Assembly: GCA_031291955.1 (NCBI GenBank)
Contig: JARLIA010000005.1
Coordinates: 209,057 to 273,056 of the forward strand
From: Minisyncoccota bacterium
GTDB lineage: Bacteria > Patescibacteriota > Minisyncoccia > Moranbacterales > UBA2206
DNA: 64,000 bases
Reading direction: 5' to 3'
Shown here one piece after another: positions 9,972-12,667 of this stretch. The translations under genes were made by a program, and so were the position numbers. The notes beneath the pieces are model-generated. The model was not told the origin of the DNA. It did not search any database and saw nothing but the letters and a program-made list of their open reading frames with translations. The stretch's first letter is position 1. Each line of letters begins with the position of its first letter.

Positions 9972-10000
9972 TGACAAATTAAGATGGATGTGATAGAAAG
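9972..10000 (+). promoter_or_regulatory. possible sigma70-like promoter (TTGACA-N17-TAGAAA) ahead of hairpin array A
   Basis: Good -35, weak -10; located ~10 bp upstream of the first hairpin. Confidence 0.3.
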
Positions 10001-10010
10001 AAATGCTCAG

Positions 10011-10676
10011 AGCGGGACGACCAAAAAACTTTTATCCAAGATTGGAGCGTTGTCCTGCTTCGATCAATTTTTCTGGATGGCAGACGAGAAGATGATTATT
10101 AAAAATGCTGGCACGATTGTCTGTCATCCTTTCCTGAAAACAAGTTTTGAGAGAGACGACGTTCAAGATTTAAACCGAAGAGGAGTTGTGTGTCTCTCTC
10201 AAAACCAGTTCTTTCCAAAGACAGCGGACGATAAGGTGTCTATAGAGAATGAGCATCTCTGTGTCCGCTGTCTGCCAACAATTCCTGCCACGGCGGGATA
10301 AGATTTGGGAGAAACGGTTGTTAGATTTTATTGACCTTTAAGATGTGGTAGTTGTTTCTCCCAAATCACAATATTTTGCTGGACGAGCCAATCGTTATAA
10401 TTTTGAAAGATGATTTGTTCCGCAAATCTGGGTGAGACGATTATGGTTGTATAATATCATGATCAGATTCTTGTCTCACCCTTTCCTTGAAGAAATTAAC
10501 CGCTTGATTTTTTCAAGGAGAGCACGAATGAGCGAGTATCAAAAATGACCAGACGTATGTGCGCTCCAACTGGGTGGCGGACGATAGATCGCGTATTCAT
10601 ATGAGAAGGATGGTGTCTGCCACTTTTTAAAAAGTACTTTCCAAATCAATGTGTCCTTCGGGACGAAAACCAAATG
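10011..10676 (+). repeat. hairpin array A: ten consecutive stem-loop modules (stems 8-13 bp, loops 31-34 nt) with the conserved junction 5'-stem-GAC|GA…U|GUC-stem-3', ending in a GUCC-UUCG-GGAC-GA tetraloop mini-hairpin just before the IS110-like ORF
   Basis: Inverted repeats at 10011/10052, 10075/10119, 10145/10192, 10219/10263, 10303/10354, 10375/10417, 10430/10473, 10485/10508, 10520/10559, 10572/10615; G-U wobbles imply RNA-level pairing on the + strand. Confidence 0.6.
10277..10386 (+). repeat. 110-bp direct repeat R (copy 1) containing the hairpin ATTTGGGAGAAAC…GTTTCTCCCAAAT
   Basis: 109/110 identical to 12440-12549. Confidence 0.8.
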
Positions 10677-10698
10677 GCTAATCGGCCAAAAGGAGAAA

Positions 10699-11325
10699 AC
10701 AATGCAGGAAAGATTTGTTGGCATCAGGCACCGAGTGAAGCAGTCAGCGGTTGGCGAAGCGCGTCCGACACAGTTGGCTATTATCTATCCCAATCTTTTT
10801 AATGTTAATGGTTTCGAGGTGTATGATTTCGAAACTGAGACGGACGAGTTGGATTGGGTCAAAGGGCGTTTCCCGGTGAAGTTTCGCAAGCCTGAGGCAA
10901 ATGAGGATTTGTCCAAGTTTGCCACCCATCACATCAAATGGCGCAAGTTGAAAAAGGACGAAGATTTCAAAAACTTCCCCGACAACCTTATGAAACTAGA
11001 CGGCCGCGATTTTTTCACCGTTGCCAGGGTGCCAATGGAATATGATGGCATCCGGTCCGGCGACAAAGTGGCCATGGTTCTCGGCGGGTCCGGAGATAAA
11101 CTGGCCTTCGCGCTTTCCCGCCAAGGCGAAAAAAGCGGCGCCGAAGTCTGGCGCGTCTCGCCGTTTTCCCTGAAAGAAAAAAGAGGAGAGCGGAACAAGG
11201 AAGATGACGCGAAAACTTTAGCTGAGCTTCTCTGGAAATATGAAAATATTTTTCAGAGAGTGGAAGTGAAAGACCGCGAACTCATTCTGCTCCGAAGACG
11301 GCGGATATCCCGAGGGGGATATTGA
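10699..11325 (+). CDS. IS110-family transposase-like protein, N-terminal (DEDD/RuvC-like) part; catalytic motifs appear degenerate
   Basis: Segment VAMVLGGSGDKLAFALSRQGEKSGAEVWRVSPFSLKEKRGERNKEDDAKTLAELL resembles the IS110 DEDD-domain core (…mEATGgY…NP…KTDriDA…); AAGGAG RBS 8 nt upstream of the ATG at 10699; ends in a stop in a different frame from the next ORF. Confidence 0.55.
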   Translation, partial: TMQERFVGIRHRVKQSAVGEARPTQLAIIYPNLFNVNGFEVYDFETETDELDWVKGRFPVKFRKPEANEDLSKFATHHIKWRKLKKDEDFKNFPDNLMKLDGRDFFTVARVPMEYDGIRSGDKVAMVLGGSGDKLAFALSRQGEKSGAEVWRVSPFSLKEKRGERNKEDDAKTLAELLWKYENIFQRVEVKDRELILLRRRRISRGGY

Positions 11326-11341
11326 ACTGGCTTTTGACAAA

Positions 11342-11947
11342 GTGAAAGCCAACGACAGGATCCTTCAAGCCTTGGAAGAAGAAGAGTCCCGGCGGGAAAA
11401 ATCTCTGGTCAAAGTTATCGGAAAACTGGGCGTGTATAATGATCTATTTTTTCCGATTAAAGGCGTCGGGCCGAAAATTGCCGCCAGGATTATCACCGCG
11501 ATAGGTGACATTCGCCGTTTTCCGACGGCTTCCAAAATAAAAGCGTTCTGTGGAGTTCACGTGCTCTTCGAATTTCCGCAAAACGGAAAAACAGTCGTGC
11601 GGAAACTTCTCCCGGGCGAGTTGCCCAATGAAAATCCGCGCTTTGCCAGGAAGCGGATGGGCGAGCTGGCCAATTGGCATAACGATGCCCGCCAGGCGCT
11701 TTATCTTTTGGGCGATCAGTTTAACCGCCGGCCGGATTCTGTTTGGGGCCAGAAACTTCTGGAATATAAGGTTAAGTTTCGCGAGAAACATCCGGAAGTG
11801 ATCGTCGGCGACAATGGCAAGAAAAAATATACCAATGCCCATATCCACAAGATGGCCACCTGGCGCACCTTGACCAAATTTGTCGAGTGGCTCTGGCGGG
11901 AATGGACGCGGTTGGAAAAACCGGAAGCGCAGAGCAAGGCGGCCTAG
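11342..11947 (+). CDS. IS110-family transposase C-terminal (Transposase_20-like) part; GTG start, frameshifted relative to the upstream ORF
   Basis: IKGVGPKIAARIITAIGDIRRFPTASKIKAFCGV matches the IS110 PGIGPxTAAxLLAEIGDxxRF…AYAGL motif; downstream RKRMGELANWHNDARQALYLLG matches KRGNxxLRxALYxAA; the conserved Ser position reads QNG. Confidence 0.7.
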   Translation: MKANDRILQALEEEESRREKSLVKVIGKLGVYNDLFFPIKGVGPKIAARIITAIGDIRRFPTASKIKAFCGVHVLFEFPQNGKTVVRKLLPGELPNENPRFARKRMGELANWHNDARQALYLLGDQFNRRPDSVWGQKLLEYKVKFREKHPEVIVGDNGKKKYTNAHIHKMATWRTLTKFVEWLWREWTRLEKPEAQSKAA

Positions 11948-12439
11948 GACACAAAAACGCGCCTCAAATTTGAGGCAAAAACGGGCGAGACGATCTGAGA
12001 GCTATTAGACATGATGCCTTTCGTGTCTCGCCCTCTCTTCAAAGAAATTAATTTTTCGGTTAATGTTTTTGAAAAGAGACGAGAAGATTGTTATATTATG
12101 ATTCTTTGCGTGTCTCTTCGGTTGGCGGACGAGTGCAAGGCTATTAAAATGAATCTATAAATGTCTGCCAACTTTCCCAGTTTTCAAAAAGCAAGACGAA
12201 GAGCGTGCTGTATCACGAACGGCAATTTGTCTTGCTTTCTGGATGGCAGACGAATGTTGGTGTATTAAGGATGAATACTAACTTGTTTGCCATCCTTTTC
12301 TGAAAACAAATTTTGAGAGAGACGAGAGAAGTGTTTTATCAAGATTAATTTAATGTCTCTCTCAAAACTAGTTCTTTCCAAAGACAGCGGACGAGAGGAG
12401 GAGTGCCTCTTGCGATTCATCGAATGTCCGCTGTCTGCC

Positions 12440-12549
12440 AACAATTCCTGCCACGGCGGGATAAGATTTGGGAGAAACGGTTGTTAGATTTTATTGACCT
12501 TTAAGATGTGGTAGTTGTTTCTCCCAAATCCCAATATTTTGCTGGACGA
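12440..12549 (+). repeat. 110-bp direct repeat R (copy 2)
   Basis: 109/110 identical to 10277-10386. Confidence 0.8.
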
Positions 12550-12603
12550 TGATTGTTTTATTAAAAATGAGGATTTACATGTCCTGCAAAACCAAAGGCG
12601 AAC

Positions 12604-12667
12604 GATTGATTATGTGCTCATTGAGCGATGAGAGACCCGTTCGCCTTTTCTTTTTTTCCAAAAATTC
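12604..12667 (+). terminator. last array hairpin (AAAGGCGAACG…CGTTCGCCTTT) followed by TCTTTTTTTCC; candidate intrinsic terminator of the array transcript
   Basis: 11-bp perfect stem followed by a T-run. Confidence 0.45.

What the first reader, a model, noticed from the sequence alone, without database searches (positions are those of the whole stretch)
9972..12667. Degenerate IS110-family recombinase gene pair inside two paralogous arrays of >20 co-varying hairpin modules
Between dprA and pth, a split IS110-like gene (10699-11325 and 11342-11947) is flanked by array A (10011-10676) and array B (11983-12667). All modules share the junction stem-GAC|GA…(31-34 nt loop)…U|GUC-stem. Stems differ between modules yet stay base-paired through compensatory changes (GGGUGAGAC/GUCUCACCC versus GGGCGAGAC/GUCUCGCCC) and G-U wobbles (GGAUGGCAGAC/GUCUGUCAUCC). 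That points to selection on RNA secondary structure read from the + strand. The block begins near a TTGACA promoter-like site and ends with a hairpin plus T-run. Known IS110 elements use a structured bridge RNA with programmable loops, and many IS110 members insert into REP-like palindromes. This locus could be either (a) an IS110 relative surrounded by an expanded guide-hairpin array or (b) a REP/BIME-like palindrome cluster invaded by an IS110 element. I do not know a described system with this architecture.
Basis: partly seen in the sequence, partly recalled or inferred. Interest (0 to 1): 0.92.

Follow-up and report, generated by a model that had tools for sequence, protein, structure and literature searches.

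The report
Stem-loop TIGR guide array, broken tasR
The hairpin arrays are real and form a TIGR-Tas RNA-guided DNA-binding system of the stem-loop type already described in Candidate Phyla Radiation bacteria; here its protein gene is broken by a 95-base deletion, so this is a known kind of system, not a new one.

Summary
A covariance model built only from a related genome finds 19 hairpin units in the window, all on the + strand. Nine lie at 10010-10622 and ten at 11983-12646; there are none elsewhere in 64 kb.

Each unit reads: variable stem, ACGA, 9-nt spacer A, short U..(A/C)UGA inner loop, 9-nt spacer B, UGU, complementary stem. Stems co-vary strongly.

The gene between the arrays is not an IS110 recombinase. 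It passes the curated NCBIfam model for TIGR-Tas effectors (130 bits, cutoff 100) and fails the IS110 models. Its closest solved structure is TasR (9MTY). It belongs to the Candidate Phyla Radiation (CPR) TasR clade with an inactive RuvC domain, which includes the Buchananbacteria locus named by Faure et al. 2025.

This is a stem-loop TIGR-Tas locus as described in Faure 2025 and Xu 2026, where such proteins act as RNA-guided transcriptional repressors.

Two points are particular to this locus:
- tasR carries a 95-nt microhomology deletion plus frameshift that removes a conserved coiled-coil helix. The same sequence appears in three contigs from other assemblies.
- Stems and linkers are 88-94% conserved between paralogous blocks and between species, while spacers are at random-level identity.

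No spacer target was found.

Verdict: real, a new member of a known kind, low to moderate interest.

The parts
9971..9999 (+). Promoter-like site TTGACA-N17-TAGAAA upstream of array A
   Evidence: Read directly. The same TTGACA-N17-TAGAAA stands at the same place in L001 (5166-5194). The -10 hexamer is weak and the consensus scan did not list it. Function is inferred.
10010..10622 (+). TIGR stem-loop array A: nine tigRNA units (A1-A9). Each is stem, ACGA, spacer A (9 nt), inner loop, GA, spacer B (9 nt), UGU, stem.
   Evidence: CM R2 hits with E from 4.5e-9 to 1.4e-3. Grammar parse and spacer coordinates. Fold z = -9.3.
10481..10522 (+). Accessory AU-rich hairpin in the linker; not a guide unit. 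A paralogue lies at 12036-12076.
   Evidence: Inverted repeat I6. Appears in the MFE folds. Conserved in L001.
10702..11325 (+). tasR pseudogene, 5' part. Encodes the RuvC-like N-terminal domain with R9 at the position of the first catalytic Asp. Preceded by RBS AAGGAG at 10690-10695. Ends at a premature TGA after the frameshift.
   Evidence: 54-78% identical to the N-terminal part of full-length homologues P0001 and P0002. The same truncated 207-aa product is called on three other contigs.
11285..11292 (+). Deletion junction (TTCTGCTC). Relative to L001, 95 nt are missing between two TTYTGCTC microhomologies. This removes about 31 codons of the conserved coiled-coil helix (..DAMKARIACEQRLRQ..IG.IFC) and shifts the frame.
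   Evidence: Protein alignment columns 203-233. DNA comparison with L001 6480-6589. Contigs L083-L085 are 100% identical to the window across the junction.
11290..11947 (+). tasR pseudogene, 3' part (second frame; the longest ORF starts at GTG 11342). Encodes the Nop-type RNA-binding domain.
   Evidence: NCBIfam NF052498 TIGR_Tas_endo, 130.2 bits (cutoff 100), profile positions 41-215 of 215. PDB 9MTY TasR, E = 1.8e-8. Pfam PF02371, E = 1.2e-7.
11983..12646 (+). TIGR stem-loop array B: ten tigRNA units (B1-B10). B5-B9 are scaffold paralogues of A2-A6, and B1-B3 of A7-A9.
   Evidence: CM R2 hits with E from 5.2e-10 to 0.014. Fold z = -14.4. Paralogue alignment.
12595..12660 (+). Last unit (B10) followed by a U-rich run (TTTTCTTTTTTT); probable end of the transcript.
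   Evidence: Read directly. Inverted repeat I9. The orthologous unit in L001 also ends in a T-run. The consensus terminator scan did not list it because its loop is too long.

Best explanation
The locus is a TIGR-Tas system (tandem interspaced guide RNA array plus TIGR-associated protein) of the stem-loop array type, with an effector from the CPR clade of TasR proteins.

**Probable mechanism**, by homology with the characterised members CsTasR and PateTasR (Xu et al. 2026):
1. The + strand is transcribed from about 9971 through array A, tasR and array B, to the U-run at about 12660.
2. The precursor is cut in the linkers into about 19 separate stem-loop tigRNAs.
3. A TasR dimer binds each tigRNA through its Nop domain. 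It recognises the conserved nucleotides that flank the spacers (GA before, U after).
4. The two 9-nt spacers pair with opposite strands of one 18-bp DNA site.
5. The RuvC-like domain lacks the first catalytic acidic residue, so the complex binds without cutting and blocks transcription.

**State in this genome.** The effector gene is interrupted by a 95-nt deletion and frameshift that removes most of the first coiled-coil (dimerisation) helix. The system is therefore most likely recently inactivated, while its arrays are still intact.

**Shown here:** the anatomy of the units, the covariation, the strand and gene association, the family membership of the protein, and the deletion.

**Inferred, not shown:** transcription, processing, DNA binding, repression and loss of function.
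For: **Protein**
- NF052498 'TIGR-Tas system RNA-guided endonuclease' scores 130.2 bits (cutoff 100) for window ORF2 and 138 bits for homologue P0002.
- phmmer of ORF2 against the PDB gives 9MTY (TIGR-TasR) as the only significant hit, E = 1.8e-8. A family profile gives 9MTY at 3.2e-22, against IS621 at 3.2e-3.
- The AlphaFold model of P0002 has pLDDT 95 and pTM 0.89. Its best Foldseek matches are 9MTY (5.9e-12), then IS621/ISCro4, then TasH.
- 733 homologues were found; those that carry a source name are from Patescibacteria/CPR genomes.
- L034 is a family member. It is the Buchananbacteria scaffold that Faure et al. name as their example of TasR with inactivated RuvC (PMC12045711 section 4).
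- The GI[D] position is R9 in the window. No D or E appears among the residues tabulated there, which cover 89 of the 93 homologues. This matches the report that R8 fills the first catalytic position of CsTasR (Xu 2026).

**RNA**
- 19 units, all inside the two arrays and none elsewhere.
- A grammar-free logo over 788 hairpins from the family shows ACGA, nine uninformative positions, then UGU, on both halves of the unit. [quoted passage not shown]
- Covariation is supported.
- In 81 loci, 366 units lie on the gene strand against 17 on the other, clustered up- and downstream of tas.
- Spacers are hypervariable (21-37% identity) inside 88-94% conserved scaffolds.

**Deletion:**
Against: - No transcription, processing or binding data exist for this locus.
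- No DNA target was found for any spacer pair. Matches in the window equal the shuffled control. Two IMG/VR scans for the one conserved spacer pair gave four unrelated hits each, which looks like chance.
- The CUU processing motif reported at stem bases is only modestly enriched: 8 of 12 window units, and 40% against a 23% control across the family.
- RuvC inactivity rests on alignment and on published relatives. D117, D128 and D167 are (nearly) invariant, and an alternative active site was not excluded.
- The second catalytic position could not be placed unambiguously.
- If the broken gene is truly dead, intact arrays call for a recent event or a second effector elsewhere in the genome. None is present in this window.
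Confidence: 0.92

Rival explanations
1. An IS110-family insertion sequence, degenerate or active, whose bridge RNA has expanded into an array of programmable hairpins.
For: Pfam PF02371 Transposase_20 hits ORF2 (1.2e-7). 45 of 93 homologues give weak PF01548 DEDD_Tnp_IS110 hits. IS621 and ISCro4 are the second-best structural matches. Several sources name homologues 'transposase'.
Against: - NCBIfam IS110 models score 30 and 23 bits against cutoffs of 140 and 180, while the TIGR-Tas model passes.
- The first DEDD Asp is R9, and no D or E is seen among the tabulated residues at that position (89 of 93 homologues).
- The Ser241-equivalent is D or G in 88 of 93 homologues, and N in the window.
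- There are 19 equivalent units rather than one two-loop bridge RNA.
- The gene is single-copy in the window.
- The topA-dprA-tasR order is kept in a genome whose dprA DNA is only 62% identical.
Confidence: 0.02
2. A cluster of REP/BIME-like genomic palindromes into which an IS110-like element inserted.
For: Some IS110 members insert into REP sequences (general knowledge). The units are imperfect palindromes in intergenic DNA.
Against: - No unit occurs outside the locus in 64 kb; the best outside hit has E = 0.41.
- The strict grammar finds none outside the locus on the + strand, the only strand scanned outside it.
- Plus-strand CM scores far exceed minus-strand scores at the same sites.
- Units flank the homologous gene in 60 of 81 genomes, on the gene strand.
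- The unit interior has the two-spacer box C/D grammar, not a REP consensus.
Confidence: 0.01
3. The system is still functional in this organism. Three routes are possible: the deletion is a minority or assembly variant; the two half-proteins (RuvC-like 207 aa and Nop about 200 aa) still work; or a second Tas encoded elsewhere uses the arrays.
For: All 19 units keep well-paired stems and conserved junctions, so the arrays show no decay. The Nop part still scores above the family cutoff. Most of the genome lies outside this window.
Against: - The same deleted sequence is found in two Logan run assemblies and one NCBI MAG contig, with 0 mismatches.
- The deleted segment carries nearly invariant residues (A, R, C, E, Q, R, G, F) of the first coiled-coil helix. 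Published structures show this helix mediates dimerisation (Xu 2026).
- No second tas gene is present in the window.
Confidence: 0.15
4. The units act as box C/D-like guides for RNA, for example rRNA or tRNA modification or binding, rather than for DNA.
For: Tas proteins share the Nop domain with box C/D snoRNPs. Faure et al. speculate that this CPR clade may be an intermediate toward RNA-guided RNA modification. Nop5 complexes appear as weak structural matches (ranks 24-25).
Against: - Xu et al. 2026 show DNA binding and transcriptional repression for two relatives of this clade.
- The units carry only minimal GA/U flanks, not full RUGAUGA/CUGA K-turn boxes.
- No methyltransferase partner is evident next to the locus.
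- rRNA of this organism is not in the window, so complementarity could not be tested.
Confidence: 0.03

Closest known systems
Stem-loop TIGR-Tas systems with catalytically inactive TasR of CPR bacteria (Faure et al. 2025, Science, PMC12045711; Xu et al. 2026, bioRxiv 10.64898/2026.09.09.750476; CsTasR, PateTasR, and the Buchananbacteria RIFCSPHIGHO2_02_FULL_56_16 locus)
   Same: - Same protein family: NF052498 passes, and the Buchananbacteria locus L034 is a homologue.
- RuvC-like N-terminus with Arg at the first catalytic position.
- CPR host.
- Arrays both upstream and downstream of tas, on its strand.
- Units with variable palindromic stems and two 9-nt spacers flanked by conserved box nucleotides.
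- A terminal unit followed by a U-run.
   Different: - tasR here is a pseudogene (95-nt deletion and frameshift).
- The inner loop is short (10-17 nt, mostly UAU..AUGA) rather than the 5-bp inner hairpin with 10-nt spacers reported for CsTasR.
- The intact protein would be about 446 aa, against 547 aa for CsTasR and 329 aa for PateTasR.
- It carries a lineage-specific insertion of about 25 aa in the Nop domain.
- The arrays form a higher-order repeat of about 9-10 distinct scaffolds.
Dual-repeat TIGR-TasR, e.g. TaTasR (PDB 9MTY)
   Same: Best sequence and fold match among solved structures. Same domain order: RuvC, coiled-coil, Nop C-terminal domain. Same tandem two-spacer guide logic.
   Different: TaTasR is an active nuclease (D11) with uniform 36-nt tigRNAs made of conserved edge and loop repeats. 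Here the edge repeats are replaced by unit-specific stems, the RuvC domain lacks the Asp, and identity is only about 20%.
IS110/IS621 bridge-RNA recombinases (PDB 8WT6, 8WT9)
   Same: Homologous RNA-binding (Nop/Transposase_20) domain and a RuvC-fold N-terminal domain. The guide RNA has bipartite programmable loops.
   Different: No DEDD first Asp and no serine nucleophile. It fails the curated IS110 models. It has 19 single-site guide units instead of one target-plus-donor bridge RNA, and shows no sign of mobility.
Archaeal/eukaryotic box C/D sRNPs (Nop5-fibrillarin-L7Ae)
   Same: Nop-domain protein dimerised by a coiled coil. Pseudo-symmetric guide with two short guide segments bounded by C/D-type nucleotides.
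   Different: No full K-turn boxes and no fibrillarin or L7Ae partner seen. Characterised relatives target DNA, not RNA.
CRISPR arrays
   Same: A tandem array of short variable guide segments in a conserved frame, next to its effector gene and processed into unit guides.
   Different: There is no identical direct repeat. Each unit has its own stem sequence and two 9-nt spacers that read opposite DNA strands. No cas genes or adaptation genes are present.

Membership tests
TIGR-Tas system (stem-loop array type, CPR TasR clade) | Effector with the Tas-type Nop RNA-binding domain | tested here: met
   NF052498 TIGR_Tas_endo scores 130.2 bits against a cutoff of 100 for window ORF2. 9MTY gives E = 1.8e-8 with ORF2 and 3.2e-22 with the family profile.
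TIGR-Tas system (stem-loop array type, CPR TasR clade) | N-terminal RuvC-fold domain (TasR rather than TasA or TasH) | tested here: met
   The model of homologue P0002 (pLDDT 95) aligns over 324 columns with TasR 9MTY and about 417 columns with IS621. PF01548 gives weak hits in 45 of 93 homologues. Window ORF1 is 54-78% identical to the N-terminal part of P0001 and P0002. ORF1 alone has no Pfam or PDB sequence hit.
TIGR-Tas system (stem-loop array type, CPR TasR clade) | RuvC catalytic residues substituted (inactive clade) | tested here: inconclusive
   The first position is R9 in the window and R/Q/T/A/K/I in the 89 of 93 homologues tabulated, none D or E. This matches R8 of CsTasR. The second position could not be placed unambiguously. 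D117, D128 and D167 are conserved.
TIGR-Tas system (stem-loop array type, CPR TasR clade) | Tandem array of guide units next to tas, on the same strand | tested here: met
   19 units flank the gene and none occur elsewhere in the window. Across 81 loci there are 366 units on the gene strand against 17 on the opposite strand.
TIGR-Tas system (stem-loop array type, CPR TasR clade) | Each unit holds two 8-12 nt spacers, each bounded by conserved box C / box D nucleotides | tested here: met
   GA-N9-U occurs twice per unit in 15 of 19 window units under the strict grammar. A grammar-free family logo gives ACGA-N9-UGU on both halves.
TIGR-Tas system (stem-loop array type, CPR TasR clade) | Variable but consistently palindromic stems in place of edge repeats | tested here: met
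   98.2% of cells are paired, six of nine pairs show double-sided changes, and 0 of 500 shuffles reach this. Unselected stem positions 5-9 are paired in 69-87% of units against 40-53% in the control.
TIGR-Tas system (stem-loop array type, CPR TasR clade) | Array transcribed and processed into unit tigRNAs bound by Tas; the spacers direct binding to an 18-bp DNA site | not testable with these tools
   This needs small-RNA-seq, pull-down and EMSA. The in-silico target search was negative or at chance level.
TIGR-Tas system (stem-loop array type, CPR TasR clade) | Intact effector gene | tested here: not met
   A 95-nt deletion with frameshift lies at 11285-11292. Profile positions 1-40 of NF052498 are missing. 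This bears on functional status, not on what kind of locus it is.
IS110-family bridge-RNA recombinase / insertion sequence | Curated family models | tested here: not met
   NF033542 scores 30.4 bits (cutoff 140) and NF051857 scores 22.8 bits (cutoff 180) for ORF2. P0002 scores 55.4 bits on NF033542.
IS110-family bridge-RNA recombinase / insertion sequence | DEDD catalytic residues in the RuvC-like domain | tested here: not met
   The first Asp position is occupied by R9. No D or E appears among the residues tabulated at that position, which cover 89 of 93 homologues.
IS110-family bridge-RNA recombinase / insertion sequence | Catalytic serine in the C-terminal domain (S241 of IS621) | tested here: not met
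   In the profile alignment to 8WT6, the Ser of YESG aligns with the family's D/G position: D 66, G 22, S 1 of 93. The window has N there.
IS110-family bridge-RNA recombinase / insertion sequence | One bridge RNA with a target loop and a donor loop; element ends; mobility or multiple copies | tested here: not met
   There are 19 equivalent units on both sides of the gene. The window holds a single gene copy. Left-flank synteny (topA-dprA) is conserved with L001. Only 64 kb of the genome was examined.
REP/BIME palindromic elements | Dispersed through intergenic regions of the genome, independent of one gene | tested here: not met
   There are no CM hits with E < 0.4 outside the locus in 64 kb. 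The units co-localise with tas across genomes.
CRISPR array | Identical direct repeats separating the spacers; cas genes nearby | tested here: not met
   No repeat family spans the units; only paralogous blocks were found. No cas-like ORFs lie in the neighbourhood.

The most novel reading that the evidence does not exclude
**Reading.** Spacers in stem-loop TIGR arrays are exchanged in place. The spacer-loop-spacer insert of an existing unit would be replaced as a cassette, while the unit-specific stem and linker are kept. This would be a mode of guide renewal unlike the addition of CRISPR spacers at the leader end.

**Evidence compatible with it**
- Stems plus linkers are 94% identical between the paralogous blocks A2-A6 and B5-B9. 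They are 88-91% identical between the downstream arrays of this genome and of L001 (78% between the two upstream arrays), although L001's dprA DNA is only 62% identical.
- The enclosed spacers are at random-level identity.
- One 125-nt tract (A5/B8) is identical including its spacers.
- One spacer pair is shared 16/18 between non-orthologous scaffolds of the two genomes.

**Mundane alternative.** Strong purifying selection on the scaffolds, short-tract gene conversion and unconstrained drift of the spacers could together give the same pattern.
Probability: 0.25. Interest if true: 0.65.

Novelty: new member of a known kind. Interest (0 to 1): 0.27.

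Why it matters
As a discovery of a system it adds little. 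Stem-loop TIGR arrays with dead-RuvC TasR in CPR bacteria were published in 2025-2026, and curated models already recognise the protein, though public annotations still call homologues 'transposase'.

The locus is useful as a natural example in three ways.
- It shows an effector pseudogenised by a clean microhomology deletion while all 19 guides stay intact.
- It shows that the unit-specific stems and linkers of this array are more conserved across species than the flanking dprA coding DNA (and, for the downstream array, than tasR itself), and are organised as a higher-order repeat.
- It gives a quantified contrast between conserved scaffold and fully turned-over spacers. This bears on a question both papers leave open, namely how TIGR arrays acquire or renew spacers.

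Tried and rejected
- **Rfam.** At gathering thresholds over the window, only two tRNAs were found. At E <= 1 over the locus, the only hits were two sub-threshold miRNA-family matches on the A5/B8 hairpins, which I take to be chance.
- **Self-targets in the window.** I tested all four ways of joining spacer A and spacer B, on both strands, allowing up to 4 mismatches. Counts equal the shuffled-spacer control: one hit with at most 3 mismatches per configuration, against 0.75 expected.
- **Targets in IMG/VR.** I scanned for the one spacer pair conserved between species, in both orientations. Each gave four hits, in unrelated and mostly high-GC contigs, with the same count for both orientations. 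I take this as chance level. I did not scan the other spacers because an exact 18-mer is likely to match a collection of that size by chance alone.
- **Phage GenBank.** blastn of the whole locus found no match.
- **Closer relatives.** I looked for a closer pair of genomes to watch spacer turnover. L001 and L003 are identical over 8.3 kb, and every other pair is at most 75% identical.
- **First covariance model.** Model R1 was built with the structure one column out of register. The slide control exposed the error, and it was rebuilt as R2.
- **CUU processing motif.** Enrichment is only modest.
- **Intragenic tigRNA.** I considered whether the 25-aa insertion at 11565-11640 or the deleted segment hides one. 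Their hairpins have loops of 5-17 nt with no two-spacer grammar, so I rejected this on direct reading of the sequence.
- **Source record.** Looking up the window's dprA only returned short contigs.

Full report
**What is in the sequence**

Between dprA (8808-9914, minus strand) and pth (12925-13500, minus strand) the + strand carries two runs of hairpins around a split gene.

I built a covariance model (R2) only from 19 units of a related genome (L001) and ran it with filters off over the whole window on both strands. It finds 19 + strand units with E between 5e-10 and 0.014.
- Nine units lie at 10010-10622 (A1-A9) and ten at 11983-12646 (B1-B10).
- The best hit anywhere else has E = 0.41.
- The minus strand of the same sites scores at most 17 bits, against 17-40 bits for the + strand (16 of the 19 units at 25 bits or more).
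- A strict text grammar (stem of at least 6 bp, CGA, N9, T...GA, N9, TG, stem) matches 15 of the 19 units and nothing on the + strand of the other 61 kb, the only strand scanned there.

The arrays fold much better than dinucleotide shuffles, with z = -9.3 and -14.4. The count is 19 guide-type units plus about five accessory hairpins, rather than more than 20 modules.

**Anatomy of a unit**

The '31-34 nt loop' is structured. After the 5' arm come G and A, then nine variable bases. A short inner element follows, which starts with U and ends with GA (mostly UAUUAAAAUGA, 10-17 nt). Then come nine more variable bases, then U, G and the 3' arm.

A logo that uses no grammar confirms this. It is based only on hairpins with stems of at least 9 bp and loops of 26-44 nt in 80 loci of the family. 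It shows A-C-G-A, nine uninformative positions, then U-G-U, on both halves of the unit. Each unit therefore carries two 9-nt variable segments, each bounded by the same conserved nucleotides, in a pseudo-symmetric frame.

**Covariation**

On the 19 L001 units, 98.2% of cells are paired against 75.4% in shuffles (0 of 500 shuffles reach this). Six of nine pairs change on both sides, and sliding the partner by 1-3 columns drops pairing to 34-52%. Those units were selected for a stem of at least 6 bp, so I also ran a less circular test. It used 363 unique units from 81 loci, selected on a 4-bp closure only. Their stem positions 5-9 are paired in 69-87% of units against 40-53% with shuffled partners, and all four Watson-Crick pair types occur at each position. 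Selection on RNA structure read from the + strand is well supported.

**The gene**

ORF1 (10702-11325, with RBS AAGGAG at 10690) has no Pfam or PDB sequence match. ORF2 (second frame, running to 11947) gives the following.
- Pfam Transposase_20 at 1.2e-7.
- PDB entry 9MTY at 1.8e-8. That entry is deposited under an IS110-like name but is the TIGR-TasR structure.
- NCBIfam NF052498 'TIGR-Tas system RNA-guided endonuclease' at 130.2 bits (cutoff 100). The two IS110 models reach only 30 and 23 bits against cutoffs of 140 and 180.

A conceptually repaired protein finds 733 homologues; those that carry a source name are from Patescibacteria/CPR genomes. Full-length ones are 400-470 aa and cover 97-100% of the query. 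An AlphaFold model of the 54%-identical homologue P0002 has pLDDT 95. Its best solved match is TasR 9MTY (5.9e-12), followed by the IS621 and ISCro4 bridge recombinases (about 1e-8) and TasH.

A genome scan returned 80 loci. Among them is the Candidatus Buchananbacteria RIFCSPHIGHO2_02_FULL_56_16 scaffold, which Faure et al. name as their example of a TasR with inactivated RuvC.

Two catalytic positions were checked.
- At the position of the first RuvC/DEDD aspartate the window has R9 (..VGIRHR..). The residues tabulated there, covering 89 of 93 homologues, are R, Q, T, A, K or I, and none is D or E. This agrees with the published statement that R8 fills that position in CsTasR.
- The IS621 nucleophile Ser241 aligns with a D/G position of the family, and with N in the window.

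The gene is therefore a tasR of the CPR clade, not an IS110 recombinase.

**The gene is broken**

Compared with all homologues, the window lacks about 31 codons that carry nearly invariant residues (..DAMKARIACEQRLRQ..IG.IFC). In the model these form most of the first long coiled-coil helix.

At the DNA level, 95 nt present in L001 (6490-6584) are missing between two copies of TTYTGCTC. This leaves one copy at 11285-11292 and shifts the frame. In keeping with this, ORF2 matches only profile positions 41-215 of NF052498.

The truncated 207-aa product is called on three other contigs: two Logan run assemblies and one NCBI MAG. All three are 100% identical to the window across the junction. The deletion is therefore not an artefact of this one assembly. 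There is no second tas gene in the window.

**Association across genomes**

In 81 loci, the grammar derived from this window finds 366 units on the gene strand and 17 on the other. They cluster within about 1.5 kb up- and downstream of tas, and 60 loci have at least one. This refutes the REP/BIME reading.

**Comparison with the literature**

Faure et al. 2025 (PMC12045711) describe two relevant things.
- A CPR clade of TasR with inactive RuvC that is associated with stem arrays.

Xu et al. 2026 (bioRxiv 10.64898/2026.09.09.750476) add the following.
- They catalogue 2,559 stem-loop arrays.
- They report that arrays occur on both sides of tas.
- They solve the PateTasR and CsTasR structures.
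- They find no cleavage.
- They demonstrate RNA-guided, reversible transcriptional repression.

The window matches this description feature by feature. The mechanism I propose is taken from those relatives and is inferred for this locus: co-transcription, processing in the linkers, a TasR dimer on each stem-loop, two spacers reading opposite strands of an 18-bp site, and binding without cleavage. The reported CUU motif at stem bases is present in 8 of 12 window units, but across the family it is only modestly enriched (40% against 23%).

**Features particular to this locus**

*Higher-order repeat.* The arrays repeat the same order of about 9-10 different stems. A2-A6 correspond to B5-B9, A7-A9 resemble B1-B3, and L001 has two tandem copies downstream.

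*Scaffold against spacers.* The table gives DNA identities.

| Comparison | Stems + linkers | Spacers | Inner loops |
|---|---|---|---|
| Window A2-A6 vs B5-B9 | 94% (195/208) | 37% (21% without the identical A5/B8 pair) | 69% |
| Window array B vs L001 downstream arrays | 88-91% | 30-35% | 65-68% |
| Window array A vs L001 upstream array | 78% | 25% | 59% |

For reference, the two genomes share 74-81% DNA identity in tasR and 62% in dprA. The downstream-array scaffolds are thus the most conserved DNA of the region, while the spacers are fully turned over.

*A5/B8.* This pair lies in a 125-nt tract that is 99% identical, spacers included. That pattern looks like recent gene conversion.

*Shared spacers.* Only one spacer pair is shared between species. 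Window A9 and the L001 unit at 8425-8481 match at 16 of 18 positions, in non-orthologous array positions. The swapped control gives 0.

Both papers state that the way TIGR arrays gain spacers is unknown. The mosaic seen here is compatible with in-place exchange of the insert. It is equally compatible with purifying selection on the scaffolds plus drift of the spacers. I could not separate the two, because no closer pair of genomes was available.

**Targets**

No spacer pair matches the window better than shuffled controls. The conserved pair gives only what look like chance hits in IMG/VR, and the locus has no match in GenBank phages.

**Verdict**

The system is a stem-loop TIGR-Tas locus of a published clade, here with a pseudogenised effector. 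It is a new member of a known kind. Its interest is low to moderate and lies mainly in the scaffold-versus-spacer contrast and in the decayed effector alongside intact guides.

Noticed in passing
window 12676-12905 (+): A near-consensus promoter-like site (TTGACA-N17-TATACT, 11/12, with TG) lies directly after array B. It is followed by about 200 nt that fold with z = -6.9 and end in a hairpin with T-runs on both strands (12868-12900), next to the 3' end of pth. There is no Rfam match, and the stretch is not present at this place in L001. It is a candidate unidentified structured small RNA.
   Followed up: partly
window 10284-10301 and 12447-12464; L001 5468-5484, 7909-7925, 8632-8648: A small hairpin with a YACG tetraloop (UCCUGC-CACG-GCGGGA) sits in the linker before unit A5/B8. 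It recurs in L001 with compensatory changes. It is not a guide unit and may be a processing or stability element.
   Followed up: no
window 10481-10522 and 12036-12076: A conserved AU-rich 19-bp hairpin without spacers lies between units A7/A8 and between B1/B2. Its 3' arm overlaps the 5' arm of the next unit, so the two folds are mutually exclusive. It is also present in L001.
   Followed up: no
window 10262-10386 vs 12425-12549: A 125-nt tract is 99% identical between arrays A and B, including both spacers of unit A5/B8. This is the only unit with CGG instead of CGA and with a 17-nt inner loop. It is probably a recent gene-conversion tract. Short-read contigs of the same organism break at or near these repeats (L082 ends at 10291, L083 and L085 start at 10338, L083 ends at 12454).
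   Followed up: partly
window 10574-10622 (unit A9) and L001 8425-8481: Both spacers are shared at 8/9 and 8/9 positions between the two species, although the units sit in non-orthologous array positions. It is the only shared spacer pair among 341 units from all loci. This suggests either a conserved target or movement of the insert between scaffolds.
   Followed up: partly
window 11565-11640 (TasR residues FEFPQNGKTVVRKLLPGELPNENP): A lineage-specific insertion of about 25 aa sits in the Nop domain, at the place that corresponds to the serine loop of IS110. It is shared with L001 but absent from the other homologues aligned. Its DNA contains a conserved small hairpin (TTTCCG-N5-CGGAAA).
   Followed up: no
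window 9984-10301 (+): A 105-aa ORF that runs through units A1-A4 is called as a protein-coding gene on the NCBI MAG contig that holds this stretch (L084 605-922). On the Logan contig L082 a 102-aa ORF is called over nearly the same stretch. Both are almost certainly spurious calls over the guide array.
   Followed up: partly
L001 7433-7995 and 8158-8835: The related genome has two tandem copies of the downstream sub-array, about 30 units in total. They are separated by about 120 nt with an unrelated palindrome (8016-8073). This shows that whole sub-arrays duplicate.
   Followed up: partly
L001 vs window, left flank: The order topA-dprA-tasR is conserved although dprA DNA is only 62% identical. 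The right flank differs: pth in the window, and sigma-70-like and conjugation-type genes in L001.
   Followed up: no
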